Source of the DNA: an uncultured Candidatus Saccharibacteria bacterium
GTDB taxonomy: Bacteria; Patescibacteriota; Minisyncoccia; UBA6257; 2-01-FULL-56-20
Assembly: GCA_964361595.1 (NCBI GenBank)
Contig: CAYIAX010000002.1
Location: 7,722-71,721 of the forward strand
Direction: 5' to 3'
DNA length: 64,000 nucleotides
The notes under the pieces are model-generated. The model was given only the letters and a program-made list of their open reading frames with translations. It made no database searches and had not been told where the DNA came from. Of this stretch, positions 3,028 to 36,289 are shown piece by piece. The translations under genes were made by a program, and so were the position numbers. Numbering within the stretch: position 1 is the stretch's first letter; each line of letters starts with the position of its first letter.

Positions 3028-4761
3028 ATGCCCATTTCCAATCAAAAAATCGCCCAGGTGCTTTACGAAATTGGGGAATATTTGGACATGCAAAAGGTGT
3101 CCTTTAAGCCGCGCGCTTATGAAAAGGCCGCTCAAGCGGTTGAAGGACTCGCCGGAAGCGTGGAGGAAATTTACCGCGAGGGCGGCATCAAGGCTTTAAA
3201 AGACATTCCGGGCGTCGGCGAATCAATTGCGGAGAAAATTGAGGAACTCATTAAGACCGGCAAAGTGAAATATTATGAAGGACTTAAGAAAAAAACACCG
3301 GTAAACCTCGGGGAACTCCGCGGCATTGAAGGCCTGGGGCCAAAATCAATTCAAAAGCTATATGAGGAGTTAGGCATTCGCAGTTTGGCGGATCTGGAGC
3401 GAGCGGCGCAAAGAGGAAAGATTGCCGGGCTCTCCGGTTTCGGCAAAAAAACGGAAGCAAATATTTTGAAGGGCATCGAATTTCTCAAGGGCTCGAGCGG
3501 GCGCGCAATTTTGGGTTTTGCCATGCCGCAGATAAATTCAATTGAGGAACAGCTTAAAAAGTTAAAGGAGGTGGAGAAACTTACGGTTGCGGGCTCCGCG
3601 CGCAGAAAAAAAGAAACAATCGGAGATATTGATATCCTCGTCGTTTCAACTAAACCGGAACCGATCATGGATTACTTTACAAGCATGGCTCAAGTTGTGC
3701 GCGTTTACGCGAAGGGCAGAACCAAGTCCTCGGTGCGGACGCGGATGGGATTGGATGTGGACTTGCGCATAGTGCCCAAGGAATCTTATGGCGCCGCCTT
3801 GAATTACTTCACGGGTTCTAAGGATCACAACGTCGCTCTGCGGCAGGTCGCTATTAAAAAGGGATATAAGCTCAACGAATACGGCTTGTTCAAAGTCGGC
3901 CGCGGCAAAGAAAAAATGGTTGCGGGCGCGACCGAGGAAGAGGTTTACGCCGCTTTGGGCCTCGACTACATAGAACCGGAACTGCGCGAGCATACCGGCG
4001 AAATCGAACTGGCGGCAAAGCACGCGCTGCCGAAGCTTATCGGTTACGGCGAAATTTTAGGGGACCTACAGGTGCAGACCGACTGGACGGACGGTTCGGC
4101 TTCGATCGAAAAAATGGTGGAGGAAGCGCGGCGGCGGAAACTCCAATATATTGCGATTACAGATCACACGAAGCGGCTTGCGATGACCGGCGGCCTCGAT
4201 GAAAAGCGTATTTTAAAGCAAATGGCGGAGATAGACCATCTCAATAAAAAATTAGGCGGGAGTTTTAAGATCCTCAAGGGAACCGAATGCGACATCTTAA
4301 AAGACGGCACGCTTGATTTGCCGGATGAAGTTTTGGCAAAGCTCGATTTTGTGGGCGCTTCCGTCCACTCTTTCTTCCACTTGCCGCGGGCGGAACAGAC
4401 CGAGCGGGTAAAACGCGCAATGCGAAATCCCCATGTGGACATGATTTTCCATCCTACTGGCAGAATCTTGAAGCGGCGCGAGGCTTGCGATCTTGATTTG
4501 GATGAGGTTGTCAAGGCCGCGAAGGCGACGAAAACACTGCTCGAAATTGATGCTTACCCGGACCGCTCGGACCTCAAAGATGAATATATAAGGAAAGCGG
4601 TCGAGGCCGGCGTGAAATTAGCCGTTGATTCCGACGCGCACGCTCCGTCCCATTATGAGTTCATTGATTATGGCGTGGCCCAAGCCAGGCGGGGCTGGGC
4701 GAAGCGTAAAGATATCGTGAATAGTTGGCCAGTCGAGAAAATGTTAGCTATGCTTAAGTGA
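3028..4761 (+). CDS. polX: DNA polymerase X family protein with a C-terminal PHP phosphoesterase domain
   Basis: N-terminal HhH motifs (GIGxxIAxKI, GLGPKSIQK), a pol-beta palm, and a C-terminal ITDHTKRLAMTGG PHP motif. 577 aa. Confidence 0.8.
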   Translation: MPISNQKIAQVLYEIGEYLDMQKVSFKPRAYEKAAQAVEGLAGSVEEIYREGGIKALKDIPGVGESIAEKIEELIKTGKVKYYEGLKKKTPVNLGELRGIEGLGPKSIQKLYEELGIRSLADLERAAQRGKIAGLSGFGKKTEANILKGIEFLKGSSGRAILGFAMPQINSIEEQLKKLKEVEKLTVAGSARRKKETIGDIDILVVSTKPEPIMDYFTSMAQVVRVYAKGRTKSSVRTRMGLDVDLRIVPKESYGAALNYFTGSKDHNVALRQVAIKKGYKLNEYGLFKVGRGKEKMVAGATEEEVYAALGLDYIEPELREHTGEIELAAKHALPKLIGYGEILGDLQVQTDWTDGSASIEKMVEEARRRKLQYIAITDHTKRLAMTGGLDEKRILKQMAEIDHLNKKLGGSFKILKGTECDILKDGTLDLPDEVLAKLDFVGASVHSFFHLPRAEQTERVKRAMRNPHVDMIFHPTGRILKRREACDLDLDEVVKAAKATKTLLEIDAYPDRSDLKDEYIRKAVEAGVKLAVDSDAHAPSHYEFIDYGVAQARRGWAKRKDIVNSWPVEKMLAMLK

Positions 4762-7261: not shown

Positions 7262-7588
7262 GGGGATGATTGGCTTCGATAGGTATGCGTCGTGAGCTGG
7301 CGAGCCGAGCGTGATCTCGTAAAACTCACATTCACAATAACTGCCAACTTCAAAGTTGCAGCTCCAGCCTACGCTTACGCGTAAGTTGGGATCGGCTAGC
7401 TTGGGTCTCTTAGGCTAATACCGGTCGTATACAAGGAGGCTAGTTCCGGACGATGGTTCTAATCCGGAGCAAAAATAAGAACCAATTCTGAGCAATCAGA
7501 ACTCGCCTTGAGTTTATCGAAGGGCTACGCTCGTAGAAGGTTCACCGATAGCATTTCCTAGACGCGGTTTCAACACCGCCATCTCCAC
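7262..7588 (+). ncRNA. ssrA: tmRNA (SsrA)
   Basis: The 5' GGGGAUGAUUGGCUUCGAUAGG pairs with the 3' ...GACGCGGUUUCAACACCGCCAUCUCCAC as a 7-bp acceptor stem. The T-arm GCGGUUUCAACACCGC is tRNA-like. An internal tag-like ORF ...GCC AAC UUC AAA GUU GCA GCU CCA GCC UAC GCU UAC GCG UAA is present. An extended -10 box TGCTAGAAT lies at 7245-7253. Confidence 0.85.
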
Positions 7589-7596
7589 TTAGAAAA

Positions 7597-12222: not shown

Positions 12223-12678
12223 TCAACTACCCGCCCGCCGTATCTCCCGCTCCGCCGCTTTGCTCTTCAGGAGCTCCCGCTTATCTTCTTTCTTCCGGCT
12301 GCGGCCTAAGCCAAGCTCAAGTTTGATCAGTCCTTTCTTCAGGTAAGCGGAAAGGGGGATAAGATGAAAGCGTTTATCGGTGAGCTTTCCCGACAAGTTT
12401 TTAATTTCCTCGCGCCGCAAGAGGAGCCGCCGACCCCGTTTTGGATCGTAAGCCTCGGAAATATTCTTCGGCTGGTAAGGAGGGATTTGTGCGTTTAAAA
12501 GCCACGCCTCGTTGCCGCGGATCAAAACATGCGTGCCGCTCAAATTTAGGCGTCCGGCTTTTACGCTCTTCACCTCATGTCCCAATAGTTCGATCCCAGC
12601 TTCGAGTGTTGCCAAAATTTCGTAATCAAAACAAGCGCGGCGGTTTTCAGATAGAAACTGCATAGTTGCATTATACAA
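12223..12678 (-). CDS. smpB: SsrA-binding protein SmpB
   Basis: ENRRACFDYEILATLEAGIELLGHEVKSVK is a canonical SmpB N-terminus. Confidence 0.85.
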   Translation of the reverse strand: MYNATMQFLSENRRACFDYEILATLEAGIELLGHEVKSVKAGRLNLSGTHVLIRGNEAWLLNAQIPPYQPKNISEAYDPKRGRRLLLRREEIKNLSGKLTDKRFHLIPLSAYLKKGLIKLELGLGRSRKKEDKRELLKSKAAEREIRRAGS

Positions 12679-12729: not shown

Positions 12730-14322
12730 ATGAGAAAGAAAATAGAATCAGAACTGGCGAAGATTTTTAAGAGTAAAGATTATGATTGGAATATTACTGT
12801 GTCTGAAAAGCTAGATTTCGGGCATTTTGCGACGACTTTGCCGCTCCGATTGGCAAAAACTGAAAAGCGAGCTCCGCTTGAGGCCGCGGCGAAGTTAAAA
12901 GAAACGATCGCGCAGGAGCTTATGCCTGGATTATTCTCGCGCGTAGAATTCGCGCCGCCGGGATTTATCAATTTTTGGCTTGCACCCGGCGCATTGCAGA
13001 AGGAACTCTCTATTATAAATAAAGAAAAAGCAAAATACGGCAGGTCTGCGGCAAAAAAAGAAAAGATCCAGCTTGAGTATGTTTCCGCGAATCCCACCGG
13101 GCCTTTGACACTTGCGAACGGCCGCGGTGGATTTTTCGGCGATACGCTGGCAAACGCGCTCATCTCGCAGGGCTACAAAGTTGAGCGCGAGTATTATGTG
13201 AACGATACGGGTAATCAGATCGTGGTGTTGGGAAAATCCGTGCTCGCTGCGGCAGGCTTAATTCCCATCGAAGAAAATTTTTATAAAGCTGCTTATGTCG
13301 CGGGTTGGGCAAAAGCGCATAAAGCACTTATAAAAAAGCACATAGCAGATCCGCACGCCCTGGGACGATTGGCCGCCGCTGACTTTTTGAAGGACATCAA
13401 GCATGTGCTTGGCGCAAAAGCCGGAATCAAATTCGATCGCTGGACTTCGGAGTACGGCCACATCCACCAAAAAGGGTTAGTTGAAAAAGCTTTGGCTGCG
13501 CTTAAAAAAAGCGGGGAAGTCTATAAAGAGGAAGGTGCCGTTTGGCTGCGGACCACAAGCTTCGGCGACGATAAAGACCGGGTTTTGATTACAACAGATG
13601 GATTTCCTACATATCTTTTAGCCGACGCCGGACATTATTTGGAAACCAAAATGCGCGGTTTTGACCGGAAAATCAATATTTTAGGCCCGGATCATCACGG
13701 TTATGTAAAAAGGATCCAAGCCGCGGCGCAAATCCTTGGCCTAAAAAAATCCGAGGTGCTGGTTACGCAGGCGATTAGGCTTATCCGCCGCGGCGAAGAG
13801 GTAAAAATGTCCAAGCGGAAAGGCGAATTCATAGCATTTGAGGAATTAGTGGATGAGGTTGGCCTTGATGCCGCGCGTTTTTTCATGCTAATGGTGGCTT
13901 TAGACACCCATATGGATTTCGATCTGGAGCTTGCGAAGGAGCGCTCGTTGAAAAATCCCGTCTATTACGTCCAATACTCGTATGTGCGGGCAATGAGCAT
14001 CATCAAAAAAGCCCAGATTAAGGGCGGAGTAAAACCGCAAGAGTTCGTTTTACTCACCGGCCCGGATGCGATTGCCTTAATTTTCAAACTCACCCAGTTT
14101 CCGGATATTCTTGAGCGCGCGTCCCAGGATTTTGGCGTTCACCGGCTCACGCATTACGCGATCGAACTCTCTCGCGCCTTCCACGCTTTCTATGAACGGG
14201 AGCGGATCATCGGCGCGGAACCGAAACTGGCTCGCGCGCGCGGCGCTTTGGTTGCGGCGACCGCCGTAGTTTTAAAAAATCTTTTCGATCTCTTGGGAAT
14301 TTCCGCTCCGCAGAAAATGTGA
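12730..14322 (+). CDS. argS: Arginine--tRNA ligase
   Basis: Class I signature ANPTGPLTLANGRGG, KMSKRKG and DALRY-type C-terminus ...FHAFYERERI. Confidence 0.9.
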   Translation: MRKKIESELAKIFKSKDYDWNITVSEKLDFGHFATTLPLRLAKTEKRAPLEAAAKLKETIAQELMPGLFSRVEFAPPGFINFWLAPGALQKELSIINKEKAKYGRSAAKKEKIQLEYVSANPTGPLTLANGRGGFFGDTLANALISQGYKVEREYYVNDTGNQIVVLGKSVLAAAGLIPIEENFYKAAYVAGWAKAHKALIKKHIADPHALGRLAAADFLKDIKHVLGAKAGIKFDRWTSEYGHIHQKGLVEKALAALKKSGEVYKEEGAVWLRTTSFGDDKDRVLITTDGFPTYLLADAGHYLETKMRGFDRKINILGPDHHGYVKRIQAAAQILGLKKSEVLVTQAIRLIRRGEEVKMSKRKGEFIAFEELVDEVGLDAARFFMLMVALDTHMDFDLELAKERSLKNPVYYVQYSYVRAMSIIKKAQIKGGVKPQEFVLLTGPDAIALIFKLTQFPDILERASQDFGVHRLTHYAIELSRAFHAFYERERIIGAEPKLARARGALVAATAVVLKNLFDLLGISAPQKM

Positions 14323-17300
14323 TAGAGTTCTTGCTCATGCCCAAACAAAAACTAAAAAAGTTTTTTTCTGAAGGCTGGAATCTGCCCAAAATCGAGGAGA
14401 AAGTTTTGAATTTTTGGAAAGTGAACCGGATCTTCGATAAATCCCTTGCTAAAAACAAGAAAAAGTCCGCTGCCCAGACCAAGACTTTCGTCTTTTATGA
14501 AGGTCCGCCGACCGCGAACGGCCGGCCCGGCATCCACCACGTGATCGCGCGTTCCTTTAAAGACGTAATCCTGCGCTACAAAACGATGCGTGGTTATTAC
14601 GTGCCGCGAAAAGGCGGCTGGGATACGCACGGCTTGCCGGTGGAACTTGAAGTGGAGAAACAGCTTGGACTTAAGTCCAAGAAAGAAATTGAAGCTTATG
14701 GCGTGGCCGAATTCAACCGCAAGTGCAAGGAGTCTGTTTGGAAATACAAAGACGAGTGGGAGCGGCTTACCGAGCGCATGGGCTATTGGCTCGACATGAA
14801 GCATCCCTACATTACATATGAGACCGATTACATCGAGACGCTTTGGTGGGTAATTAAAACCATTTACGACAAAGGCTATATGTACGAGGGACATAAAGTG
14901 GTGCCGTGGTGTCCGCGCTGCGGGACCGCGCTTTCCTCACATGAACTTGCGCAAGGCTATGAAGAAGTTACGGATCAATCGGTTTACGTGAAGTTCAAAT
15001 TAAAACCTGGGCAGAAATGGGGAAAGGATTACGAGACGAAAGACAGAGCTTACATCCTGGCTTGGACGACCACGCCTTGGACTTTACCGGGTAACGTGGC
15101 TTTGGCGGTCGGCGAGAAGATAAAATACAGCGCCGTGCGCGTGGACGGAGTAAAAGAACTTTTGATACTTGCTACCAATACGGTGGAAAAAGTTTTAAAA
15201 GACCGCACTATCGAAGTGGTACACGAAAATATTTCCGGGAGCGAACTCGTCGGCTTGAAATACGAGCCCCTCTTTCAGGTCAAAGCTTTAAATGCGCCTG
15301 CGGCGCACCAAGTTTATACTGCGAATTTTGTTACCACCGAAGACGGTACGGGCGTAGTGCATACGGCTGTGATGTACGGTGAAGACGATTATCAGCTAGG
15401 TTTGAAAGTCGGTCTGCCCCAGCATCACACCGTGGACGAACAGGGGAAATTCACGAAAGAAGTCGAAGGATTGAGCGGCATGTTCGTTAAGGCCAAAGAA
15501 ACCGAAAAAAAGATTTTCGAGCATCTGGAAAAGAACGGCAATTTGCTTAAGATCGAATCTTACACGCACGAATATCCGCATTGCTGGCGCTGCGGCACAC
15601 CGCTTTTGTATTACGCCCGCAATTCCTGGTTTGTGGGGATGAACAAATTGCGCAAGGAACTTATCACTAATAATAAAGCGGTGAACTGGACACCTGCGCA
15701 CATAAAAGAAGGAAGGTTTGGCGAATGGCTGCGCGAAGCAAAGGATTGGAACTTCTCGCGCGAACGCTATTGGGGCACGCCTTTGCCGATCTGGCGTTGT
15801 GATCTCTGCGAGCACAAAGAAGCCTTGGGCAGCGTCTCGGAGCTTGGCCAGAAAACCGGCGGGCTTAAAAACACTTATTGGGTTTTGCGGCACGGCGAGT
15901 CAGCCACGCAGTTGAAACGCATACACGATAACGGCGAAGGCGGTTTCCATTTGACTCTGAAGGGAAGGACGCAAGTCGAACGCGCCGCGGCAGCGGTTAA
16001 AAAACTTAAATTGGACTTGATTGTCTCCTCGCCGGTGCTGCGGACAAAAGAAACGGCGGAAATCGTGGCGGCGGCAGCCGGAGTTAAAATCGAAACCGAG
16101 CCACAGTTCAAAGAAATCCAGCTGGGCGATGTTTCGGGCAAGCCTTCGGCGACTTATCATGAAGCCTTCCCGACTTATGAAAGTAAATTCAAGGGGGCGC
16201 CCGCGGGCGGGGAGACTTTGACCGAATTACGGAAACGCACGTGGGCGGGCATTGAAACTTTGGAGAAAAAATATGCAGGCAAAAAGATATTGATCGTAAG
16301 CCACGAATATCCGGTCTGGATGCTTGCGCAAGCGGTGGAAGGATGGGATGAATCTAAAGCGATTTATGAAAAAGAAAAGCGCGGCTCCGATTTTATCGCC
16401 GCGGGTGAAATTCAAAAGGTGAACTACCGTCCCGGCCCGCGCAATGAAACCGGCGAGCTGGATTTGCATCGTCCTTATATTGATTCCGTAAAGTACGCTT
16501 GCACCTCATGCGGCAAGGGCAAAATGGGCCGCATCAAAGAACTGGCGGATGTTTGGTTCGATTCCGGCGCAATGCCGTTTGCGCAAATGCATTTTCCTTT
16601 TGGGCAATCGGAAAAATCTTTGACCAGCAAAATCCCCGAACTTGTTAAAAAAATACCTTATCCGGCCGATTATATCGTCGAAGCGATGGATCAGACCCGC
16701 GGCTGGTTCTATACTCTTTTAGCGGTGGCAACGCTTTTGGGGCAAGGCGCGCCGTATAAAAATGTTACATCACTGGGCCTCATTCACGATAAATACGGGC
16801 GCAAGATGTCAAAATCCAAGGGCAATGTGGTTGATCCGTGGCTGATGATGGAAAAATACGGGATTGATGCGGTGCGCTGGTATTTTTATGCCGCAACTCC
16901 GCCGGGCGAACCCAAAAATTTCGACGAGGAAGATGTCAAAAAAACCTTCCGCAAGCTGCACGCTATCCTCTACAACTCATTCGTTTTCTTCAAGACTTAC
17001 GGCAAGCCCCGCAGCAACACGGCTGCGCCGCGGCCGAGCCATGTGCTTGATCGTTGGATTTTGGCGCTCCTCGCCAAAACCGGCGCGGAGGTTACACTCC
17101 ATCTTGACCGTTATGAAGTGCGCGAAGCCGCGCTTGCGCTCGAAGCCTTGACGGACGATCTTTCCCGCTGGTTTATCAGGCGTTCGCGCCGCCGCTTCCA
17201 GCGGCCGACAAATCAGGGCGATTATCGTAACGCTTCGGCTACGCTCGAATATGTTTTGCGCGAAACCGCAAAAATGATCGCCCCGATGAACCCGTTTTTT

Positions 17301-17906
17301 GCCGAAGCGCTTTGGGAAGATTTGAGCAAATCGGAATCGGTTCATCTTGAAACTTGGCCGGAATTGAAACCAAAATCTGCTGACGAGAAATTACTGGCCG
17401 GAATGGAAGAGGTTCGTAAAGTCGCAAGCGCGGCTTTGGCAAAACGCGCCGAGCTGGGAATCAAATTAAAGCAGCCTTTGGCTTCGCTTACGCTAAAAAA
17501 AGCCATTCCGCAGCTTGCGAAAGAAAAACAATTGGCTGAAGTTCTGAAAGAAGAATTAAATATCAAAGCCTTACATGTTGACCCCAGGCTTAAAGAAGAA
17601 CTTGTTTTCGATACGAAGATAACGCCGGAGTTGAAAGCCGAAGGAACCCTGCGCGAAATCATGCGCACGGTGCAGGATTTGCGGCAGGAGGCGGGCTATG
17701 AACCCAAGCACAAAATCGTGCTGATGTTCGAATTGCCCAATGCGTTGCGCGAGCTTGTGGCAAAAAATGAATGGTTATTGAAAAAGGAATTGAACGCCAA
17801 CCTCGTAGAGTTCAAGCGGCAGGCGAAATTCGATGCCGAACTTGAAACCAAGATCGAAAACGAAAAAGTTTGGTTCGGCGTGAGAAAGATAAAACAGTCT
17901 ATCTAA
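14319..17906 (+). CDS. ileS: Isoleucine--tRNA ligase (type 2-like) with a histidine-phosphatase (PGAM-like) domain inserted in-frame at about aa 515-705
   Basis: [13 protein letters not shown] (HIGH), [21 protein letters not shown] and KMSKSKG. The insertion carries RHGES and IVSHEYP phosphatase motifs. 1195 aa. Confidence 0.9.
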
Positions 17907-21363: not shown

Positions 21364-21450
21364 TGGTGCTGGAGAGGAGATTCGAACTCCTATGGTCTTG
21401 CGACCGCTGGCTCCTGAAGCCAGTGCGTCTGCCAATTCCGCCACCCCAGC
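21364..21450 (-). tRNA. tRNA-Leu (anticodon CAG), class II with a long variable arm and encoded CCA
   Basis: Folded by hand: acceptor GCUGGGG/CUCCAGC, anticodon stem-loop CUGGC-UUCAGGA-GCCAG, T-arm AGGAG-UUCGAAU-CUCCU, discriminator A. Confidence 0.85.
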
Positions 21451-23949: not shown

Positions 23950-25479
23950 TTAATGCATCAACTCCTTAAGCAGGCTGCGGCCGTTCATGTCCTCCGGTTT
24001 GGGAATTCCCATGAGCTCCAGGATCGTGGGGGCAACATCTGCCAAGAGCCCGCCAGTTTCTTGGGCGAGATTAGGCCAGTTCACGAAACGCCGGCCTTTG
24101 AACTCTCGGCCAATGAGGTAAAAAGGCACCGGGCTGGGATTGTGGCCTGTCTCCGCGCGGCCGCTTAAGGGATCGAATAAGGTTTCAATATTGCCGTGAT
24201 CGGAGGTGATAATGAGGACTGTATCGGTTTTCAAAACCGCATCGAGTACGCGTCCGATCTCGCGATCAATAACCTTAACCGCCTCAAGCGCGGCTTCATA
24301 ATTGCCGGTATGCGCAATCGTGTCGGGATTCGAGTAGTTGGCCAAAACAAAATCGAAAGCGTTATTTTGGACGGAATCAATGATGCGGTCGCTTACCGCC
24401 GCGGCCATCAGTTCGGGCCGTTCGTCGGGATGGGGAATGGCCAAGGACGGAATGAGCACGCGATATTCATTTTTAAACGGAGATTCGCGATGGCCGTTAA
24501 AAAAGAAAGTAACATGGGCGTACTTGTAGGTTTCGGCCAAGCGCAGCTGGGTTTTGCCCGCGTCGCTCAAAACTTTGCCTAAGGGTTCTAAAACTCCTTC
24601 CGGCGGGAACGCCACATCTAAATTCAAGCTTTCTTCATAGCGGGTCATGGTAACGAGCTTCAGGTTGGCAATGCGTTTGCGTAGCAGTTGCGGCAGGTCG
24701 CCCGCGAAAGCTTCCACTAATTGGCGCATGCTGTCTTCGCGGAAGTTGAAAAAAATCAGGCTCTCGTTGTCTTTAATCGCTCCGTCCGGTTTGAGCCGCA
24801 AGGGCGGAATGAATTCTTCCGTAAACCCCTTGGCGTAGGTTTCGCGGATCGTCGCGCCCAAGTCGTGAACCAAGTTGCCGCCTTCGCCCACTAAACATTC
24901 GTACGCGCGGCCCGTAAGCATCCATTTTTTTGTCCGGTCCATGGCGTAATATCTGCCCGTTAAGGTCGCCAAATTTTCCATCGGGATTTTCTCGAGCAGT
25001 TCCTCCAGGGAATGCGGCGGGCCATCCTTGCCGTCCGCGAAAAGGTGGAGCTTGAAGGGAATTTGCTTTTTTTTGGCAAGCTCGATTAGAGCCAAAAGAT
25101 GGTCAAGCGAGGCATGAACGGTGGCTTTGGTCAAAAGTCCTACCAGGTTCACGGCGGTTTTATTTTTTTCGGCGTGCTCCATAGCGGAAACCAGCGCCGG
25201 ATTCGAAAAAAAAGTTTCGTCCTGGATTGCCATCGTGATCCGCGGGAAGTATTGGTAAATTATTTTCCCGGCGCCCAAAGTGAGGTGCCCCACTTCGCTG
25301 TTGCCCACATCCCCCCAGGGCAGGCCGACGCTGATGCCGGAGGCCTGCAGACTCGTCATCGGATAATTTTCCGCGAGCCAATTGAATTTTTCCGGATTAA
25401 CAATGTAGACGGGATTTGCTTCTGTGGCCGGACCCAAACCCCAGCCGTCCAGGATGATCATGACGACGTTTCTTTTCAT
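23950..25479 (-). CDS. gpmI: 2,3-bisphosphoglycerate-independent phosphoglycerate mutase
   Basis: MKRNVVMIILDGWGLG N-terminus and the metalloenzyme-domain motif SDHGN. Confidence 0.85.
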   Translation of the reverse strand: MKRNVVMIILDGWGLGPATEANPVYIVNPEKFNWLAENYPMTSLQASGISVGLPWGDVGNSEVGHLTLGAGKIIYQYFPRITMAIQDETFFSNPALVSAMEHAEKNKTAVNLVGLLTKATVHASLDHLLALIELAKKKQIPFKLHLFADGKDGPPHSLEELLEKIPMENLATLTGRYYAMDRTKKWMLTGRAYECLVGEGGNLVHDLGATIRETYAKGFTEEFIPPLRLKPDGAIKDNESLIFFNFREDSMRQLVEAFAGDLPQLLRKRIANLKLVTMTRYEESLNLDVAFPPEGVLEPLGKVLSDAGKTQLRLAETYKYAHVTFFFNGHRESPFKNEYRVLIPSLAIPHPDERPELMAAAVSDRIIDSVQNNAFDFVLANYSNPDTIAHTGNYEAALEAVKVIDREIGRVLDAVLKTDTVLIITSDHGNIETLFDPLSGRAETGHNPSPVPFYLIGREFKGRRFVNWPNLAQETGGLLADVAPTILELMGIPKPEDMNGRSLLKELMH

Positions 25480-25564
25480 TAATCTAAGTTTAAACCAGAA
25501 CTTGTTTCGAATATATAGAAGCAGGCAGGCCTCGCCGTGGCTGTGTTGCGCGGCCAAAGCCGTC

Positions 25565-25727: not shown

Positions 25728-26432
25728 ATGTCGGAACATGGAACACCTCTGACGACTGTGCGCTTGCGGAAGCTATCGGGAACGGTAGTTCTCAATCTTC
25801 CCGAGATTGATTCCGAGCTGGCGCTCGACTTTTCCAATAACGCCGACGCTCTCGCGATTGTTCTTGAGCGGGCGCTGACTCGCGAGAACCTCGACGCGGC
25901 TTTGGTCGAGCTTGGGAAGAAACGACCCGAACCGAAAAAGCCCATCGAGCACGTCGGCGACTGTTTCCGCGAAACCGGCGAACTCGCGGGAACGATGATC
26001 CAAATCCCCGCCCTCCCGCGCCCGACTCTCGCGGAACTCCGGGAAAAGTTTCCCTGGATCCGAGGAGAGAACGGCATTGAGCGTGACATCTCCCCAGAGG
26101 GAGCTGTAACGCTTGTTCTGGGTACGGTGCTCCGTGAAGGAGAGCCGTCGATTAGCGGCCTGGAATACGAGCGCCGCCTCGCGCTCGTCAGTCGCCCGCT
26201 CTTCGGCTACCAGCAACTCGCCTGGCTCGTCGAGCATCAGGACGAGCACCCCGTTTTCAAGGCTCTTCTGGGACAGATTTATATCGACGGCCCGGGCCTT
26301 GTGGTGGTGATCGATGACGGCGTCCGGTACTTCCCGTCTCTTGATCAGATCGGCAAGCGGTGGAACCTGGATTTGCACTGGATCGGCCGCGGTCTGTACT
26401 CGCGCGGCCGGATCGCCTCCGGTAAGCAGTAA
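25728..26432 (+). CDS. DGR target (variable) protein, 234 aa, with the VR at its C-terminus and no signal peptide
   Basis: The C-terminal 40 aa are encoded by the VR. RBS AAGGAGA. Confidence 0.7.
   Translation: MSEHGTPLTTVRLRKLSGTVVLNLPEIDSELALDFSNNADALAIVLERALTRENLDAALVELGKKRPEPKKPIEHVGDCFRETGELAGTMIQIPALPRPTLAELREKFPWIRGENGIERDISPEGAVTLVLGTVLREGEPSISGLEYERRLALVSRPLFGYQQLAWLVEHQDEHPVFKALLGQIYIDGPGLVVVIDDGVRYFPSLDQIGKRWNLDLHWIGRGLYSRGRIASGKQ
26299..26419 (+). repeat. DGR variable repeat (VR)
   Basis: About 121 bp homologous to 26764-26884. At least 15 mismatches, every one at a TR adenine (e.g. AAC to ATC, GTC, TAC, CAC, CGC). Confidence 0.85.
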
Positions 26433-26485
26433 ATCTTAATCTCTTGGGTTCTTGGGATTTTTAATCCCTTAAACCCTTAACACCA

Positions 26486-26514
26486 AGCCCTTGCGCTCCG
26501 CGCAAGGGCTTTTT
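26486..26514 (+). terminator. GC-rich hairpin with a 4-nt loop plus T-run (agcccttgcgc tccg gcgcaagggct ttttt) 67 nt downstream of the VR. It could act as a terminator and as a DGR homing-associated stem-loop.
   Basis: 10-bp stem plus T5. Confidence 0.6.
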
Positions 26515-26763
26515 CAATCGTGATATGATCAACGCGGATAGTAGGCGATCTGTGTATGGCCAAGGTTATGCACGGCCGAATTCCCGGACAGCACCTGCCG
26601 GAACGGGAGCGGACAAGTCTTCTCCCAGTGTGCGGCGCTGGTTCGCAAATTTCTTTTGCTGCTTGGTGCGTAAAACTAAGGAATTACAGATTCCGGATAC
26701 GATTCAATCCAGAGACCTTTTTGGCGGATCGAAGGATGGTGGTTATGGCGGTTTTTCGCACAA

Positions 26764-26884
26764 TTGTGGTGGTGAACGATGACGGCAACCGGAACTTCCC
26801 GTATCTTGATCAGAACGGCAAGCGGTGGAACCTGAATTTGAACTGGATCGACAACGATCTGAACTCGAACGGCCGGATCGCCTC
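26764..26884 (+). repeat. DGR template repeat (TR). The ORF 26556-26900 is an artefact of TR/VR homology.
   Basis: Invariant, adenine-rich (AAC/AAT codons) copy of the VR. Located between the target gene and avd/RT. Confidence 0.85.
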
Positions 26885-26927
26885 TGGCCAGAAGCAATAG
26901 GAAATAAGGCAGGGCTCGGCGGAATGT

Positions 26928-27341
26928 TTATTTGGATAGCTGGCGTAGCCAGCCGCCGAGCATCTTGCCGATCTCGTCCAATGGTTCAGATAAAATAATG
27001 TATTTTTTGTTGTCGAGCGATTTTATGCGCCAGGCGATTTCCAGGAAAAACTTCGCAAGGTTCAACTTGGCCGCCGCCTGCTCTATATAGGGATATTTTT
27101 TATCCCTCGGTAGAAAAATCGCGGTATATACCGATTCGATTGTTTCAATAAACAATGAATCTATTTTATCACCCAATGTATAACGGGATATTTTCGGGAT
27201 ATGAACGGTAAATTCATGCCAAATTTCATAAGCCCGAACGAGCCGCTCGATTATCGGCAGATTGAGGTTCCCGGGGGGGGGGTTACGTGGAATGAGTTTT
27301 GCATGGATTATGAAATTCAGAAACACTTTTGAGGAAATCAT
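26928..27341 (-). CDS. avd: Avd-like accessory variability determinant (four-helix-bundle, 23S-rRNA-IVS protein family). Encoded antisense to the RT, with a C10 homopolymer in its 5' region.
   Basis: ...YTLGDKIDSLFIETIESVYTAIFLP...LNLAKFFLEIAWRIKSLDNKKYIILSEPLDEIGKMLGGWLRQL is four-helix-bundle-like. The C-run at 27274-27283 encodes NPPPG. Confidence 0.55.
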   Translation of the reverse strand: MISSKVFLNFIIHAKLIPRNPPPGNLNLPIIERLVRAYEIWHEFTVHIPKISRYTLGDKIDSLFIETIESVYTAIFLPRDKKYPYIEQAAAKLNLAKFFLEIAWRIKSLDNKKYIILSEPLDEIGKMLGGWLRQLSK

Positions 27342-28338
27342 CTCGGCTGAAAACCTGCTGATGGCCTGGCGGGAGTTCCTTTACGGCAAGCGCGGGAAGC
27401 CGGATGTGCAGGAATTCCAAATGCGGCTTATGGATAATATTTTCGCACTGCGGGACGAACTTGTAAACAAAACCTATAAACACGGCGGCTACAAGCATTT
27501 CCGGATCTCCGACCCGAAGCCGAGAGATATCCATAAGGCAGGCGTCCGCGACCGCCTGCTCCATCATGCCGTCTACCGCATTTTATACCCGCTGTTCGAC
27601 AAGACTTTCATTACCGATTCATATTCCTGCCGGTTGGGAAAAGGGACGCACCGGGCCTTAAACAAATTCCGGGCATTTGCGTATAAAGTTAGCCAAAATA
27701 ATACAAAAACCTGCTGGGTATTGAAGTGCGACATCCGCAAGTTCTTTGCAAGCATAGATCACGAAGTCCTCGCAAGAATTCTCGAGAAATATATAAAAGA
27801 CGAGGATACGATCTGGTTGCTCCAAAAAGTCATCGAAAGTTTTTCATCCACCCGCCCGGGCGTTGGCCTTCCCCTCGGCAATCTTACCTCCCAGCTGCTC
27901 GTCAATATCTATATGAATGAATTCGACCAGTTTATGAAACACGGTTCGACAAATTTCGACTCCGAGCTCGACTCGAGGAGCTTACCGCAGGCAAGAGCGA
28001 AATATTATATCCGCTATGCGGACGATTTTGTAATTCTGTCGGATAGCAGAAAATGGCTTGAACATTTAATCCCGATCATCCAAAAATTTCTGTTTGAGAA
28101 ATTAAAATTAAACCTGCATCCGAACAAAATCTCGATTAAAACCCTGGCTTCCGGAGTTGATTATCTTGGGTGGGTTCATTTTCCCGATCACCGGGTCTTG
28201 CGGACAAGCACGAAGCGGCGGATGCTGAAGCGGATTAAAACATTGCCATCGCCGGAAACAATGAATTCATATCTGGGACTTCTAAAGCATGGGAATACGC
28301 GGAAGATAAGAAAATCCAGTTTTCAGTGGTTTGTATAA
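27292..28338 (+). CDS. DGR reverse transcriptase
   Basis: RT motifs, including the DGR-type LPLGNLTSQLLVNIYMNEFD (IGxxxSQ in place of the group-II QG) and YADDFVIL. Confidence 0.85.
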   Translation: MSFAWIMKFRNTFEEIISAENLLMAWREFLYGKRGKPDVQEFQMRLMDNIFALRDELVNKTYKHGGYKHFRISDPKPRDIHKAGVRDRLLHHAVYRILYPLFDKTFITDSYSCRLGKGTHRALNKFRAFAYKVSQNNTKTCWVLKCDIRKFFASIDHEVLARILEKYIKDEDTIWLLQKVIESFSSTRPGVGLPLGNLTSQLLVNIYMNEFDQFMKHGSTNFDSELDSRSLPQARAKYYIRYADDFVILSDSRKWLEHLIPIIQKFLFEKLKLNLHPNKISIKTLASGVDYLGWVHFPDHRVLRTSTKRRMLKRIKTLPSPETMNSYLGLLKHGNTRKIRKSSFQWFV

Positions 28339-35536: not shown

Positions 35537-36289
35537 ATGAATCCGGACGACTTAAAGCGCATCCGCGTTGATATTCTGGAAATGATTCATGCGGCCGGCG
35601 AAGGGCACCTGGCCAGCTCTTTTTCCGTCGTGGAATTGCTTTACGCAATCTATGCGGGGATGGACAAAAACGACTCGTTTTTTTTGAGCAAGGGCCATGC
35701 TAGCGCCGCGCTCTTTGCGGTACTTGCGCATTTCGGGCACATCGACCGGAAAGAGCTGGCCGGTTATTGCAAATACGACTCGCGGCTCGGCGGGCATCCA
35801 TATAGAATTTCTCAAGCGGTGATGGCCGCGACCGGTTCTTTGGGGCACGGTTTTCCGATGGCGGCCGGATATGCTCTGGCTAAGAAAATAAAAAACGAAC
35901 CCGGCCGGGTTTTTTGCCTGGTTGGCGACGGCGAAACGAACGAAGGCAGTATCTGGGAGACGGCGATGTATACCGAACAGCTGGGCTTGAAAAACCTGGT
36001 TTGCGTGATTGACGAAAATAATTCCCAAGTGCGGGCAAAAGTTTCGGTTAACATCCAGCGGAAATTCGAAGCCTTTGGCTGGCAGACGGCAAGCGTGGAC
36101 GGACACAACCTGCAGGCGATCAATAAGGCCATATTTTCTCCCGCAGCCGTAACTTCTCCTTACTGCGTCGTTGCGCATACGGTCAAAGGCAAAGGCGTAA
36201 AACAGGTGGAAGCCGACATGTTTTCCTGGCACCATAAAGCGCCAACCGAGGCGGAACTCCAAGAGTTCAAAAAGGAAATATTTTCATGA
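35537..36289 (+). CDS. Transketolase, N-terminal (TPP-binding) subunit
   Basis: Split-transketolase N-terminal motifs (GHASAALFAVLAHFG, GSLGHGFP). Confidence 0.8.
   Translation: MNPDDLKRIRVDILEMIHAAGEGHLASSFSVVELLYAIYAGMDKNDSFFLSKGHASAALFAVLAHFGHIDRKELAGYCKYDSRLGGHPYRISQAVMAATGSLGHGFPMAAGYALAKKIKNEPGRVFCLVGDGETNEGSIWETAMYTEQLGLKNLVCVIDENNSQVRAKVSVNIQRKFEAFGWQTASVDGHNLQAINKAIFSPAAVTSPYCVVAHTVKGKGVKQVEADMFSWHHKAPTEAELQEFKKEIFS

What the first reader, a model, noticed from the sequence alone, without database searches (positions are those of the whole stretch)
15861..16434. Histidine-phosphatase (PGAM-like) domain inserted in-frame inside isoleucyl-tRNA synthetase
IleRS is 1195 aa, about 150-250 aa longer than typical. 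An extra ~190-aa module lies between the conserved [14 protein letters not shown] motif and the DVWFDSG zinc-knuckle region. It carries both catalytic signatures of branch-1 histidine phosphatases: RHGES (phospho-His acceptor) near its start and (L)IVSHEYP near its end. The insertion preserves the reading frame and all aaRS motifs (HIGH, KMSKS). It therefore looks like a functional domain accretion, not a pseudogene fusion.

A phosphatase embedded in an aaRS catalytic core is not a described IleRS architecture. Possible roles include hydrolysis of a phosphorylated nucleotide or regulator, or a moonlighting/editing-related activity.
Basis: partly seen in the sequence, partly recalled or inferred. 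Interest (0 to 1): 0.6.

Follow-up and report, generated by a model that had tools for sequence, protein, structure and literature searches.

The report
Phosphatase nested inside isoleucyl-tRNA synthetase
The enzyme that loads isoleucine onto tRNA in a large group of ultra-small bacteria carries a complete, apparently active phosphatase enzyme inside its catalytic core, and in sister lineages that phosphatase is a separate gene directly in front of it; this partnership seems undescribed and its purpose is unknown.

Summary
ORF 14319-17906 (+) is a type-2 IleRS (TIGR00392, 867 bits) with a branch-1 histidine phosphatase (HP) module (PF00300, E=3.5e-35). The module replaces a ~9-residue loop between the two Cys pairs of the CP3 zinc knuckle.

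It is not an artefact. All 120 best homologues and 80 GTDB species representatives across Paceibacteria (Parcubacteria) have the same architecture. The five HP catalytic residues (R524, H525, R575, E632, H662) are invariant in 121/121 sequences, although the module is only ~46% identical overall.

New findings:
- The module's closest relatives are ~190-aa free-standing phosphatases. These lie directly upstream of an insert-less ileS in 9/9 sampled genomes and 58/62 testable metagenome loci. Split and fused forms are mutually exclusive.
- Other IleRS2 lineages carry two or three HP modules at other surface loops, and a ValRS fragment carries four.
- The window encodes a canonical iPGM, so the module is not the missing glycolytic mutase.

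No paper found describes this. The substrate is unknown. My best reading is an IleRS-dedicated auxiliary phosphohydrolase, encoded in trans or in cis.

The parts
14319..17906 (+). ileS: type-2 isoleucyl-tRNA synthetase with a nested histidine-phosphatase module (1195 aa from GTG; public annotation starts at Met7)
   Evidence: ORF. TIGR00392 scores 866.8 bits against a cut-off of 621.4. Best solved relatives are 1ILE and 8C8U-W. The AF2 model has mean pLDDT 85 and pTM 0.76.
14529..14540 (+). Class I signature motif in its non-canonical form G-I-H-H (residues 71-74)
   Evidence: Sequence. H73/H74 are invariant and G71 is at least 90% conserved in the clade. PMC10485003 shows that natural G/AXHH occurs only in IleRS2 and confers mupirocin hyper-resistance.
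14955..15581 (+). CP1 editing domain (residues ~213-421) with TTTPWTLP and [15 protein letters not shown] motifs
   Evidence: Matches the isolated IleRS editing-domain structures 1WK8/1WNY/1UE0. Motifs located and conserved.
15798..15809 (+). First Cys pair of the CP3 zinc knuckle (C494-D-L-C497)
   Evidence: Aligns to the T. thermophilus 'CQAC'. Invariant in 48/48 sequences. CP3 and its zinc motif are described in PMC7191050.
15852..16457 (+). Inserted module with its linkers (residues 512-713), absent from canonical IleRS
   Evidence: Gap in the alignments to 1ILE and 8C8W and to split-form IleRSs. Insert length is 198-221 aa in 121 orthologues. Junctions are identical in all fused groups.
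15879..16358 (+). Histidine phosphatase branch-1 core (Pfam PF00300, residues 521-680)
   Evidence: E=3.5e-35, 121.9 bits against a cut-off of 21.7. The domain-only AF2 model has pLDDT 93.2. Nearest folds are PspA, GpgP, HFP, PhoE and CobC with TM ~0.75.
15888..15896 (+). R524-H525-G526: phosphate-binding Arg and nucleophilic His
   Evidence: R and H are present in 121/121 sequences and G in 115/121.
16041..16043 (+). R575: second phosphate-binding Arg (motif LRTKETA)
   Evidence: Present in 121/121 sequences.
16212..16214 (+). E632: general acid/base (motif GGET/GES)
   Evidence: Present in 121/121 sequences.
16302..16304 (+). H662: second catalytic His (motif SHEYP; free-standing relatives have SHGDP)
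   Evidence: Present in 121/121 sequences. The motif difference is shown.
16437..16484 (+). Conserved C-linker [16 protein letters not shown] that returns the chain to CP3
   Evidence: P707, G712 and D715 are at least 90% conserved. A homologous linker occurs in all fused groups. pLDDT here is 86-92.
16500..16511 (+). Second Cys pair of the CP3 zinc knuckle (C728-T-S-C731)
   Evidence: Aligns to the second Cys pair of 1ILE and 8C8W. Invariant.
16548..16568 (+). DVWFDSG motif (second half of the Rossmann fold)
16803..16817 (+). KMSKS loop
17049..17888 (+). Anticodon-binding domain (PF08264, residues 911-1054) and type-2 C-terminal domain (DUF5915, residues 1095-1190)
12730..14322 (+). argS, overlapping the ileS start by 4 nt. 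In split-form relatives the free phosphatase gene sits between argS and ileS.
   Evidence: ORF. Synteny.
12223..12678 (-). smpB, a conserved synteny anchor (smpB / argS / [HP] / ileS)
   Evidence: ORF. Pfam SmpB matches at the same position in related loci.

Best explanation
The insert is a complete, catalytically competent branch-1 histidine phosphatase that acts as a dedicated accessory module of IleRS.

In Paceibacteria this phosphatase family occurs in two mutually exclusive forms:
- Split form: a ~190-aa protein encoded immediately upstream of ileS and probably translationally coupled to it.
- Fused form, as in this window: the whole protein is transplanted into the loop between the two Cys pairs of the CP3 zinc knuckle, on the periphery of the Rossmann-fold catalytic domain. 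Short conserved linkers hold it there.

Shown:
- The domain identity, the intact catalytic residues and a confident fold.
- An intact IleRS.
- Lineage-wide conservation.
- The split/fused duality, with 94% gene adjacency in the split form.
- Recurrence of HP modules at other loops of other IleRS2 lineages and of a ValRS.

Inferred mechanism:
- The module forms a phospho-His525 intermediate on a phosphomonoester (or terminal phosphoanhydride) ligand and hydrolyses it, with E632 as the general acid/base.
- Because it is tethered to, or co-produced with, IleRS, that ligand is connected with the aminoacylation/editing cycle.
- My favoured candidate is a small by-product or ligand of the cycle (AMP- or PPi-type), whose removal would pull activation and editing forward. 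This is a guess, with probability at most 0.2.
- A tRNA 2'/3'-terminal phosphate, or a phosphorylated IleRS-directed inhibitor, are the next candidates.

The most parsimonious origin is that the split form is ancestral and a single in-frame transplantation of the neighbouring gene produced the fused form.
For: Identity and integrity
- PF00300 matches with E=3.5e-35.
- R524, H525, R575, E632 and H662 are invariant in 121/121 sequences, while the module is 45.6% identical overall against 64.1% for the IleRS core.
- pLDDT is above 90 through most of the module and 82-92 in the linkers.
- Nearest folds are phosphatases: PspA, GpgP, HFP, PhoE and CobC.
- The IleRS passes its equivalog cut-off and keeps its editing, KMSKS and zinc-knuckle residues.

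Distribution
- All 120 top homologues carry PF00300.
- 80 GTDB species representatives matched one 8-residue pattern, and 62/64 complete ORFs around it are ~1200 aa.

Linkage to IleRS
- Free relatives align end to end with the insert.
- 9/9 sampled free relatives lie directly upstream of an insert-less ileS.
- 58/62 testable metagenome loci show the same arrangement.
- The HP-ileS pair survives where a HEPN/NTase/AbiEii cassette separated argS from it.
- 0/80 fused loci keep a separate HP gene within 5 kb.
- The pairing spans three divergent IleRS types: HYGH, GIHH and GVHH.

Recurrence
- IleRS2 proteins from other lineages carry two or three HP modules at four different loops, and a ValRS fragment carries four. 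All keep RH[GA]. A second-His motif was found for most, but my simple pattern missed it for P0322 337-520 and for the truncated fourth module of P0275.
- Two of these IleRSs sit in genomic contexts that are not CPR-like.

Origin
- All fused forms share identical junctions and a homologous C-linker.
- The outer IleRS clades are all split-form.
Against: - No substrate is known, and nothing here measures activity.
- The tools gave no coordinates, so I could not test whether the phosphatase pocket faces the synthetic site or the tRNA.
- CP3 is a variable peripheral subdomain with no described tRNA contact in the yeast IleRS-tRNA complex. It may therefore simply be a permissive site.
- Conserved operon order and a neutral in-frame capture of a neighbouring essential gene could explain the Paceibacteria data without any functional coupling.
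- 4/62 free-standing genes are not next to ileS.
- A diffusible small-molecule substrate does not obviously need tethering.
- Hydrolysing AMP would be wasteful for nucleotide scavengers.
- Acidic residues next to H662 (HEY/HGD) argue against a polyanionic substrate such as PPi.
- The direction and number of split/fused transitions are unresolved. With 65 taxa the fused IleRSs are never monophyletic (0/200), and Fitch parsimony needs 2-4 changes.
- The HP-domain tree is too noisy to prove that the multi-copy cases are independent acquisitions.
Confidence: 0.55

Rival explanations
1. Neutral capture. The phosphatase has a housekeeping role unrelated to IleRS. It merely sat upstream in a conserved translation-gene operon and was accidentally transplanted in frame into a permissive CP3 loop. 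It is kept because both activities are needed, not because they cooperate.
For: - Adjacency explains where the insert came from.
- CP3 is structurally variable among IleRSs.
- The wider synteny (infC-rpmI-rplT-smpB-argS) is also conserved.
- 4/62 free copies sit elsewhere.
- The module evolves faster than the IleRS core.
Against: - HP-ileS adjacency is tighter than argS-HP adjacency: gaps of about 0-4 nt, against up to 3.3 kb, and the pair stays intact when a cassette is inserted upstream.
- HP modules recur at four other loops, in multiple copies, in unrelated IleRS2 lineages and in a ValRS.
- The linkers are conserved and confidently modelled rather than floppy.
Confidence: 0.22
2. tRNA end-healing. 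The module removes a 2'- or 3'-terminal phosphate (for example after ribotoxin damage or opening of a cyclic phosphate) from tRNA bound to the synthetase, restoring a chargeable A76.
For: - Tethering is most useful for a macromolecular substrate already bound to the same enzyme.
- A histidine phosphatase fused to a nucleic-acid enzyme has a precedent: the bifunctional RNase H/acid phosphatase model is the best NCBIfam phosphatase hit.
- Split-form loci often sit next to HEPN/NTase toxin modules. This may be coincidental.
Against: - I know of no polynucleotide phosphatase in this superfamily (from memory).
- The nearest folds all act on small molecules.
- The module has the ~35-residue cap typical of small-molecule phosphatases.
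- There is no reason for Ile/Val specificity.
- No CP3-tRNA contact is described.
Confidence: 0.1
3. Self-protection. The module inactivates a phosphorylated natural inhibitor directed at IleRS/ValRS, or needs dephosphorylation to release it. This would be analogous to resistance domains attached to their target.
For: - The enzyme already carries the GxHH motif linked to mupirocin hyper-resistance, so this IleRS lineage has a history of inhibitor pressure.
- NCBIfam records another IleRS with an accreted enzyme domain (ileS_w_GNAT).
- Patchy, multi-copy, multi-site recurrence in other lineages resembles arms-race evolution.
Against: - No phosphorylated IleRS inhibitor is known to me.
- In Paceibacteria the association is ancient and near-universal, which is more typical of a housekeeping role.
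- Aminoacyl-adenylate mimics are phosphodiesters or amidates, not the monoesters this fold hydrolyses.
Confidence: 0.07
4. Regulatory switch. The domain is phosphorylated on His525 by a metabolic donor (for example 1,3-/2,3-bisphosphoglycerate or acetyl phosphate) and tunes IleRS activity allosterically to energy state.
For: - The chemistry (a stable phospho-His) is intrinsic to the fold.
- The linkers look rigid.
- Split-form loci often have histidine kinases and response regulators downstream of ileS.
Against: - The downstream genes differ in other loci and in this window.
- Invariance of E632 points to turnover.
- Multiple tandem copies are hard to explain as a switch.
Confidence: 0.05
5. 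The module is the organism's glycolytic phosphoglycerate mutase. Jaffe et al. 2020 reported PGM as undetected in some Parcubacteria.
For: - PMC7304191 notes that PGM is absent from several shallow Parcubacteria clades.
- Some free copies are annotated 'putative phosphoglycerate mutase'.
- The archaeal short dPGM model is the second-best NCBIfam phosphatase hit.
Against: - The window itself encodes a canonical iPGM at 23950-25557 (Metalloenzyme + iPGM_N, E=1e-60 and 4e-52).
- The dPGM_arch score is 80-83 bits against a cut-off of 225.
- dPGM structures fit worse (rmsd above 5 Å) than phosphatases (2.5-3 Å).
- The dPGM 'HGN' motif and distal substrate-binding residues are absent (sequence; dPGM residues recalled from memory).
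Confidence: 0.02
6. Artefact, pseudogene, or a catalytically dead structural spacer.
For: None beyond prior caution. One GTDB locus has an in-frame stop and one has frameshifts.
Against: - An identical protein lies on an 82-kb public contig, and hundreds of independent assemblies share the same junctions.
- The catalytic residues are invariant.
- The two odd loci look like sequence-quality problems: one interrupting stop within an otherwise continuous alignment, and a frameshifted MAG assembly.
Confidence: 0.01

Closest known systems
Type-2 (eukaryote-like) bacterial IleRS, e.g. T. thermophilus IleRS (1ILE) and P. megaterium IleRS2 (8C8U-W)
   Same: The domain order and motifs match outside the insert: CP1 editing domain, CP3 zinc knuckle, KMSKS, and a type-2 C-terminus (Anticodon_1 + DUF5915). 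Sequence E-values are 7e-239 and 1e-231. Structural TM relative to the target is 0.76-0.88.
   Different: About 200 extra residues forming a separate enzyme fold sit between the CP3 Cys pairs. No solved IleRS has anything there. The signature motif is a natural GIHH rather than HVGH.
Small branch-1 histidine phosphatases: PhoE/YhfR (1EBB, 1H2E), phosphoserine phosphatase PspA (4IJ5), GpgP Rv2419c (4PZ9), riboflavin-pathway HFP (9MMH), CobC alpha-ribazole phosphatase
   Same: The fold matches (TM ~0.75, rmsd 2.5-3 Å). The size is ~190 aa, the R-H-R-E-H catalytic set is present, and there is a short cap subdomain.
   Different: Identity is only 22-27%. The module scores below every curated equivalog cut-off. 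It is nested in, or encoded next to, an aaRS. It has its own signatures: N-x-[YF]-x(3)-RHG, and SH[EG][YD]P.
Trans and cis forms of aaRS accessory catalytic modules, such as the ProRS INS domain versus free YbaK/ProX, and AlaRS editing versus AlaX (from my own knowledge)
   Same: The same module exists either as a free-standing protein or as a domain inside the synthetase in different lineages.
   Different: Those modules are aminoacyl-tRNA deacylases with an established proofreading role. This one is a phosphatase fold with no known link to aminoacylation chemistry.
NCBIfam NF040702 'isoleucine--tRNA ligase, N-acetyltransferase domain-containing'
   Same: It is a precedent for a foreign enzyme domain accreted to IleRS.
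   Different: The accreted domain is a GNAT, not a phosphatase. The window protein scores 326 bits against a cut-off of 1999, so it is not a member.
Bifunctional RNase H / acid phosphatase (NF005567, Rv2228c-type)
   Same: A CobC-like histidine phosphatase is joined to a nucleic-acid-processing enzyme. It is the best NCBIfam phosphatase hit for the insert (E=2e-26).
   Different: That protein is an end-to-end fusion rather than a nested insertion, and its partner is RNase H. The score is 93 bits against a cut-off of 326.

Membership tests
Isoleucyl-tRNA synthetase (TIGR00392 equivalog), type 2 | Whole-protein score above the curated equivalog cut-off | tested here: met
   866.8 bits against a cut-off of 621.4, despite the insert.
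Isoleucyl-tRNA synthetase (TIGR00392 equivalog), type 2 | Class I signature motifs HxGH and KMSKS | tested here: met
   KMSKS is at 829-833. The first motif is GIHH (71-74), the natural G/AXHH variant documented only in IleRS2.
Isoleucyl-tRNA synthetase (TIGR00392 equivalog), type 2 | CP1 editing domain with a Thr-rich peptide and a GTG..H..D motif | tested here: met
   TTTPWTLP is at 250-257 and [15 protein letters not shown] at 343-357. The region matches the isolated editing-domain structures 1WK8/1WNY.
Isoleucyl-tRNA synthetase (TIGR00392 equivalog), type 2 | Type-2 C-terminal organisation (no C-terminal zinc-binding domain; ARD-type domains) | tested here: met
   Anticodon_1 + DUF5915 are present. 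The best matches are IleRS2 structures and MupA/MupB-like models.
Isoleucyl-tRNA synthetase (TIGR00392 equivalog), type 2 | Aminoacylation of tRNA-Ile | not testable with these tools
   This needs an enzyme assay.
Histidine phosphatase superfamily, branch 1 (PF00300) | Profile score above Pfam's gathering threshold | tested here: met
   121.9 bits (127.5 for the excised segment) against a threshold of 21.7.
Histidine phosphatase superfamily, branch 1 (PF00300) | Catalytic core: RHG Arg + nucleophilic His, second Arg, second His, and an acidic proton donor | tested here: met
   R524, H525, R575, H662 and E632 are present and invariant in 121/121 orthologues. They are also invariant across fused plus free forms.
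Histidine phosphatase superfamily, branch 1 (PF00300) | Alpha/beta fold of the superfamily | tested here: met
   The AF2 domain model has pLDDT 93.2. Foldseek gives probability 1.00 and TM 0.70-0.77 to PspA, GpgP, PhoE, Rv3214 and CobC.
Histidine phosphatase superfamily, branch 1 (PF00300) | Phosphatase or mutase activity through a phospho-histidine intermediate | not testable with these tools
   This needs biochemistry.
Cofactor-dependent phosphoglycerate mutase (dPGM; NF038349, NF002339, NF002217) | Score above the curated equivalog cut-off, and a fold closest to dPGM | tested here: not met
   Scores are 80-83 bits against 225, 26 against 316, and 25 against 320. dPGM structures align with rmsd above 5 Å, against 2.5-3 Å for phosphatases. 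The genome has its own iPGM.
Alpha-ribazole phosphatase CobC (TIGR03162) / phosphoserine phosphatase PspA (NF045917) / phosphohistidine phosphatase SixA (TIGR00249) | Score above the curated equivalog cut-off | tested here: not met
   Scores are 70-74 against 162.9, 54-58 against 350, and 31-34 against 74.5.
IleRS with accreted GNAT domain (NF040702) | Score above the curated cut-off, and presence of an acetyltransferase domain | tested here: not met
   325.9 bits against 1999. There is no GNAT hit in Pfam.
Intein / mobile protein-splicing insertion | Hint/intein or homing-endonuclease domain | tested here: not met
   The Pfam scan of the whole protein and of the insert finds only His_Phos_1 in the insert. 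The insert has free-standing homologues that are ordinary genes.

The most novel reading that the evidence does not exclude
Histidine-phosphatase modules are a previously unrecognised class of accessory catalytic domain of class Ia synthetases. They were recruited repeatedly by IleRS and ValRS, in trans (a gene coupled upstream) or in cis (one to four copies in surface loops of the catalytic core). They carry out a second chemical step that is mechanistically coupled to aminoacylation or editing. That step could be built-in removal of a phosphorylated by-product, healing of a phosphorylated tRNA end, or destruction of a phosphorylated inhibitor. Translation in a whole bacterial class would then depend on a two-enzyme IleRS.
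Probability: 0.4. Interest if true: 0.85.

Novelty: new variant of a known kind. Interest (0 to 1): 0.72.

Why it matters
Aminoacyl-tRNA synthetases are among the best-studied enzymes. New catalytic domains inside their cores are rare, and the known ones (the editing domains) changed how translational fidelity is understood.

Here a second, apparently active enzyme is built into, or genetically coupled to, IleRS across a very large uncultivated bacterial class. Similar modules recur in other IleRS lineages and in a ValRS.

If the phosphatase is functionally coupled, it points to a requirement of the aminoacylation cycle that model organisms do not reveal, such as product removal, tRNA-end quality control, inhibitor defence or metabolic gating.

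The coexisting split and fused forms have identical junctions. That makes the system a good natural case for studying how a neighbouring gene becomes a nested domain.

It also matters for annotation. These proteins are often labelled only 'class I tRNA ligase family protein', the free copies are sometimes labelled 'phosphoglycerate mutase', and at least one free copy is labelled 'isoleucyl-tRNA synthetase'. Such labels can distort metabolic reconstructions of CPR bacteria.

Tried and rejected
- **Assembly chimera or pseudogene:** rejected.
- **'Missing PGM':** rejected for this genome, because a canonical iPGM lies 6 kb away and the dPGM membership tests failed.
- **Known IleRS-specific insertion:** rejected. 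The INS subdomain lies in ARD2, not CP3, and a 96,219-sequence survey mentions no phosphatase.
- **Intein:** no splicing or endonuclease domain.
- **Literature:** five full-text searches on IleRS/aaRS combined with histidine phosphatase, PGM, His_Phos_1 or CPR found nothing relevant. The search for CPR pyrophosphatase status was uninformative.
- **Geometry:** The full-length fold search only recovered IleRS structures.
- the afdb50 fold library was unavailable. The first bootstrap timed out.
- **'Single insertion, fused monophyletic':** a 39-taxon tree supported this (200/200). A 65-taxon tree overturned it (0/200). I now rest the single-origin argument on the shared junction and linker, and I flag the conflict.
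- **Phosphatase-domain NJ tree:** too noisy to establish independent acquisitions, and contaminated by gene fragments counted as 'free'.
- **Window scan for a soluble pyrophosphatase:** none in these 64 kb, which says nothing about the rest of the genome.


Full report
**1. The observation**

The window holds an ORF at 14319-17906 (+) of 1195 aa. It overlaps the stop codon of argS by 4 nt and is followed by a convergent trpS.

It scores 866.8 bits on the IleRS equivalog TIGR00392 (cut-off 621.4) and is closest to the MupA/MupB-type, meaning type-2, models. Pfam splits tRNA-synt_1 into two stretches and places His_Phos_1 (PF00300) at residues 521-680 with E=3.5e-35.

Base composition changes only slightly across the borders.

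**2. Where exactly the insert sits**

Against T. thermophilus IleRS (1ILE), residues 21-511 align to chain 9-478 and residues 714-1048 to chain 488-821. The P. megaterium IleRS2 structure 8C8W behaves the same way. So about 200 residues (512-713) replace a loop of about 9 residues.

That loop lies between the two Cys pairs (C494/C497 and C728/C731) of a zinc knuckle, and all four Cys are invariant in the clade. The published domain scheme calls this region CP3. It is a peripheral insertion of the Rossmann fold that carries a zinc motif in T. thermophilus IleRS and has a different topology in yeast-type and S. aureus enzymes (PMC7191050).

The rest of the enzyme looks fully functional. The editing motifs TTTPWTLP and GTG..H..D, the DVWFDSG motif and KMSKS are all present. 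The 'HIGH' motif is the natural variant GIHH. PMC10485003 shows that G/AXHH occurs only in IleRS2 and gives mupirocin hyper-resistance.

**3. Is the phosphatase intact?**

In a MAFFT alignment of the window protein with 120 homologues (54-59% identical overall), R524, H525, R575, E632 and H662 are invariant in 121/121 sequences. The module averages only 45.6% identity, against 64.1% for the IleRS core, and its length stays within 198-221 aa.

AlphaFold2 gives a full-length model with mean pLDDT 85 and pTM 0.76. The module is mostly above 90, and the linkers score 82-92. The module alone reaches pLDDT 93.2.

Foldseek places the module next to small-molecule phosphatases: PspA, glucosyl-3-phosphoglycerate phosphatase, the riboflavin-pathway HFP, PhoE, Rv3214 and CobC, with TM about 0.75 and rmsd 2.5-3 Å. 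Cofactor-dependent mutases align worse, with rmsd above 5 Å. By sequence, PhoE is the nearest solved relative (E=2e-10). The module falls below the curated cut-off of every characterised NCBIfam equivalog, including dPGM, CobC, PspA, GpmB and SixA.

**4. Distribution**

All 120 best IleRS homologues carry PF00300. They are named Parcubacteria, Paceibacterota, Wolfe-, Lipton-bacteria or Minisyncoccia.

One exact peptide pattern (VSHEYP[IV]W) recovered 80 species-representative genomes. They span Wolfe-, Lipton-, Jorgensen-, Yanofsky-, Sung-, Niyogi-, Campbell-, Vogel-, Taga- and Kaiserbacteria, and include the complete genome CP011209.1. 62 of 64 complete ORFs around the motif are IleRSs of about 1200 aa. 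One exception has an interrupting stop within an otherwise continuous alignment, and the other has multiple frameshifts.

Members have been public for years under plain IleRS names (KKS82181.1 / UniRef100_A0A0G1EGL4, KKW47578.1).

**5. The split form**

The module's nearest relatives outside IleRS are free-standing proteins of about 190 aa (34-41% identity). They align with it end to end. That family is large, with 892 clusters at E≤1e-8.

In 9 of 9 members I looked up, the gene lies directly upstream of an insert-less ileS of 956-1015 aa on the same strand. The spacing runs from an 11-nt overlap to a 40-nt gap. The usual order is smpB(-), [C39 peptidase], argS, HP, ileS, which is the synteny of this window minus the separate HP gene.

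In L006-L008 a HEPN/NTase/AbiEii cassette has separated argS from the pair, but HP and ileS remain 1 nt apart. The split-form IleRSs have an ordinary short CP3 connection at the insertion point.

A metagenome scan with the free-HP alignment returned 80 loci:
- 15 with the module embedded in ileS;
- 58 free-standing with ileS immediately downstream;
- 3 untestable;
- 4 free-standing without ileS downstream (one checked: neighbours are ackA, an M23 peptidase and a flavoprotein).

Conversely, none of the 80 fused loci has a second HP-like region within 5 kb. Split and fused forms are therefore alternative states of one HP-IleRS unit.

**6. Direction of change**

With 39 taxa and two non-CPR IleRS2 outgroups, an NJ tree of 814 core columns made the fused enzymes monophyletic (200/200), with the split L006 enzyme as their sister (173/200).

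With 65 taxa the result changed. A second group of fused enzymes clusters with the GIHH-type split enzymes L006, L108 and L122 in 200/200 replicates. The fused enzymes are never monophyletic, Fitch parsimony needs 2-4 changes, and the root state is ambiguous.

Against multiple events, all fused groups share exactly the same N- and C-junctions and a homologous C-linker, P-[YR]-[ND]-E-x-x-E-[LI]-D-[LF]-H-R-P.

The phosphatase identities form a gradient. Free forms are 46-58% identical among themselves. The second fused group is 41-47% identical to free forms. The main fused clade is 26-36% identical to free forms. That pattern can mislead distance trees.

My reading is one transplantation of the upstream gene in a GIHH-type ancestor, with the split state ancestral, because the outer HYGH and GVHH clades are all split. 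Fission, recombination and repeated insertion are not excluded.

**7. Recurrence beyond this clade**

An exhaustive HMMER search of 1.84 billion representatives with the window module found 574 proteins at E≤1e-10. Among the best 150, 13 have two or more HP domains:
- P0286 (1419 aa) has one in CP3 and one between the 'FFVTYA' helix and the anticodon-binding domain.
- P0369 (1419 aa; six cluster members, on contigs up to 1.06 Mb) and P0410 have one after DCWFESG..PYAS and one before the anticodon-binding domain. The first of these sites corresponds to the only low-confidence internal loop of the window model, residues 758-777.
- P0385/P0322 have two modules within CP3.
- The fragment P0339 has modules at three sites.
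- P0275 has four modules.

The first four full-length proteins pass the IleRS cut-off, and P0275 is best matched by ValRS models. All modules keep RH[GA]. A second-His motif was found for most, but my simple pattern missed it for P0322 337-520 and for the truncated fourth module of P0275.

P0369 sits among pyruvate:ferredoxin oxidoreductase, purA, DAHP synthase and an SLH-domain protein. P0418, from the P0385 cluster, sits next to uvrA, a 932-aa RelA/SpoT and an ECF sigma factor. Neither context looks like a CPR genome. Their N-terminal halves are about as distant from Paceibacteria IleRS as from the Thermus enzyme.

Free tandem HP-HP proteins also exist, for example in a Chloroflexota MAG. 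The domain tree hints that these modules are heterogeneous in origin, but it is too noisy to rely on.

**8. What it does**

Shown: an intact phosphatase active site under purifying selection. It is tied to IleRS by gene order and by fusion, and similar modules have been recruited again in related synthetases.

Not shown: the substrate, and the orientation of the pocket, because the tools returned no coordinates.

The glycolytic-mutase idea was raised by the reported absence of PGM in some Parcubacteria (PMC7304191). It is contradicted here by a canonical iPGM at 23950-25557 and by the failed dPGM membership tests.

I consider a dedicated accessory phosphohydrolase acting on a ligand of the aminoacylation/editing cycle the best-supported reading (confidence 0.55 for the general statement). 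The specific substrate is open. Candidates are an AMP- or PPi-type by-product, a tRNA terminal phosphate, or a phosphorylated inhibitor.

The main rival is neutral capture of a neighbouring housekeeping gene (0.22). That explains the origin of the insert, but not the tighter-than-operon adjacency or the recurrence at other sites.

**9. Novelty**

Full-text searches found no description of a histidine phosphatase in or next to any aaRS. A 2026 preprint that annotated 96,219 IleRS architectures mentions none.

The parts (IleRS2 and a branch-1 histidine phosphatase) are well known. The nested architecture, its split counterpart and its recurrence appear to be new, so I classify it as a new variant of a known kind.

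Noticed in passing
window 25728-28338: A diversity-generating retroelement. A 134-nt repeat lies at the 3' end of ORF 25728-26432 (VR, 26299-26432) and again at 26764-26897 (TR), with 85% identity. 16 of the 20 mismatches fall on A in the TR copy. A reverse transcriptase follows at 27262-28338 (RVT_1, E=6e-24). The target protein has no Pfam hit.
   Followed up: partly
window 14529-14540: The IleRS signature motif is a natural GIHH. H73/H74 are invariant in the clade. This is the G/AXHH swap that PMC10485003 links to mupirocin hyper-resistance in IleRS2. Split-form relatives carry HYGH, GIHH or GVHH.
   Followed up: partly
window 23950-25557 (-): A canonical cofactor-independent phosphoglycerate mutase (Metalloenzyme + iPGM_N), 6 kb from ileS. 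It is relevant because PGM has been reported as undetected in some Parcubacteria.
   Followed up: yes
proteins P0286, P0369, P0410, P0385, P0322, P0339, P0275; loci L179 8001-12260, L180 8001-12407: IleRS2 enzymes from other lineages, apparently not CPR, carry two or three histidine-phosphatase modules at four different surface loops. A ValRS-like fragment carries four. The organisms were not identified.
   Followed up: partly
window 16590-16649 (residues 758-777): This is the only low-confidence internal loop of the AF2 model (pLDDT 35-50). It corresponds to the site where P0369, P0410 and P0339 carry a phosphatase module, which suggests a second permissive loop.
   Followed up: no
L001 10586-13483, L003, L006 6581-9628 (CP3 region): Split-form IleRSs of two different clades (HYGH and GIHH types) share a Lys-rich extension of 12-18 residues between the two cysteines of the first CP3 Cys 'pair' (C-x16-C instead of CxxC). 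It could be a docking element for the free phosphatase or a trace of recombination.
   Followed up: no
L006-L008 3216-5841; L003/L004 5965-6548: Toxin-antitoxin or abortive-infection modules (HEPN + nucleotidyltransferase, AbiEii, HepT/MNT) are inserted in or beside the smpB-argS-HP-ileS block in split-form genomes.
   Followed up: no
L132, L133, L144, L147 (HP at ~3989-4588): A minority lineage of the same free-standing phosphatase family is not adjacent to ileS. In L144 its neighbours are ackA, an M23 peptidase and a HI0933-like flavoprotein.
   Followed up: partly
proteins P0343, P0312, P0365, P0382, P0383, P0389: Free-standing tandem HP-HP proteins of ~420 aa. P0343 is from Chloroflexota MAGs (KAA3648736.1).
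   Followed up: no
protein P0249; P0261: Annotation drift. One 189-aa free phosphatase is labelled 'isoleucyl-tRNA synthetase' by JGI, and others are labelled 'putative phosphoglycerate mutase' or 'PhoE'. Many fused IleRSs are named only 'class I tRNA ligase family protein'.
   Followed up: no
window 30126-63984: A glycan/cell-envelope biosynthesis cluster of ~34 kb. It includes two Wzy_C proteins, GDP-mannose dehydratase, several epimerases, RmlD-like and C-methyltransferase genes, GT2/GT4/GT10 glycosyltransferases, a flippase and a sugar transferase. A transketolase split into two genes lies at 35537-37203.
   Followed up: no
window 7262-7590; 21364-21450 (-): A tmRNA (114 bits) lies upstream of smpB, and tRNA-Leu(CAG) is the only tRNA in the window.
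   Followed up: no
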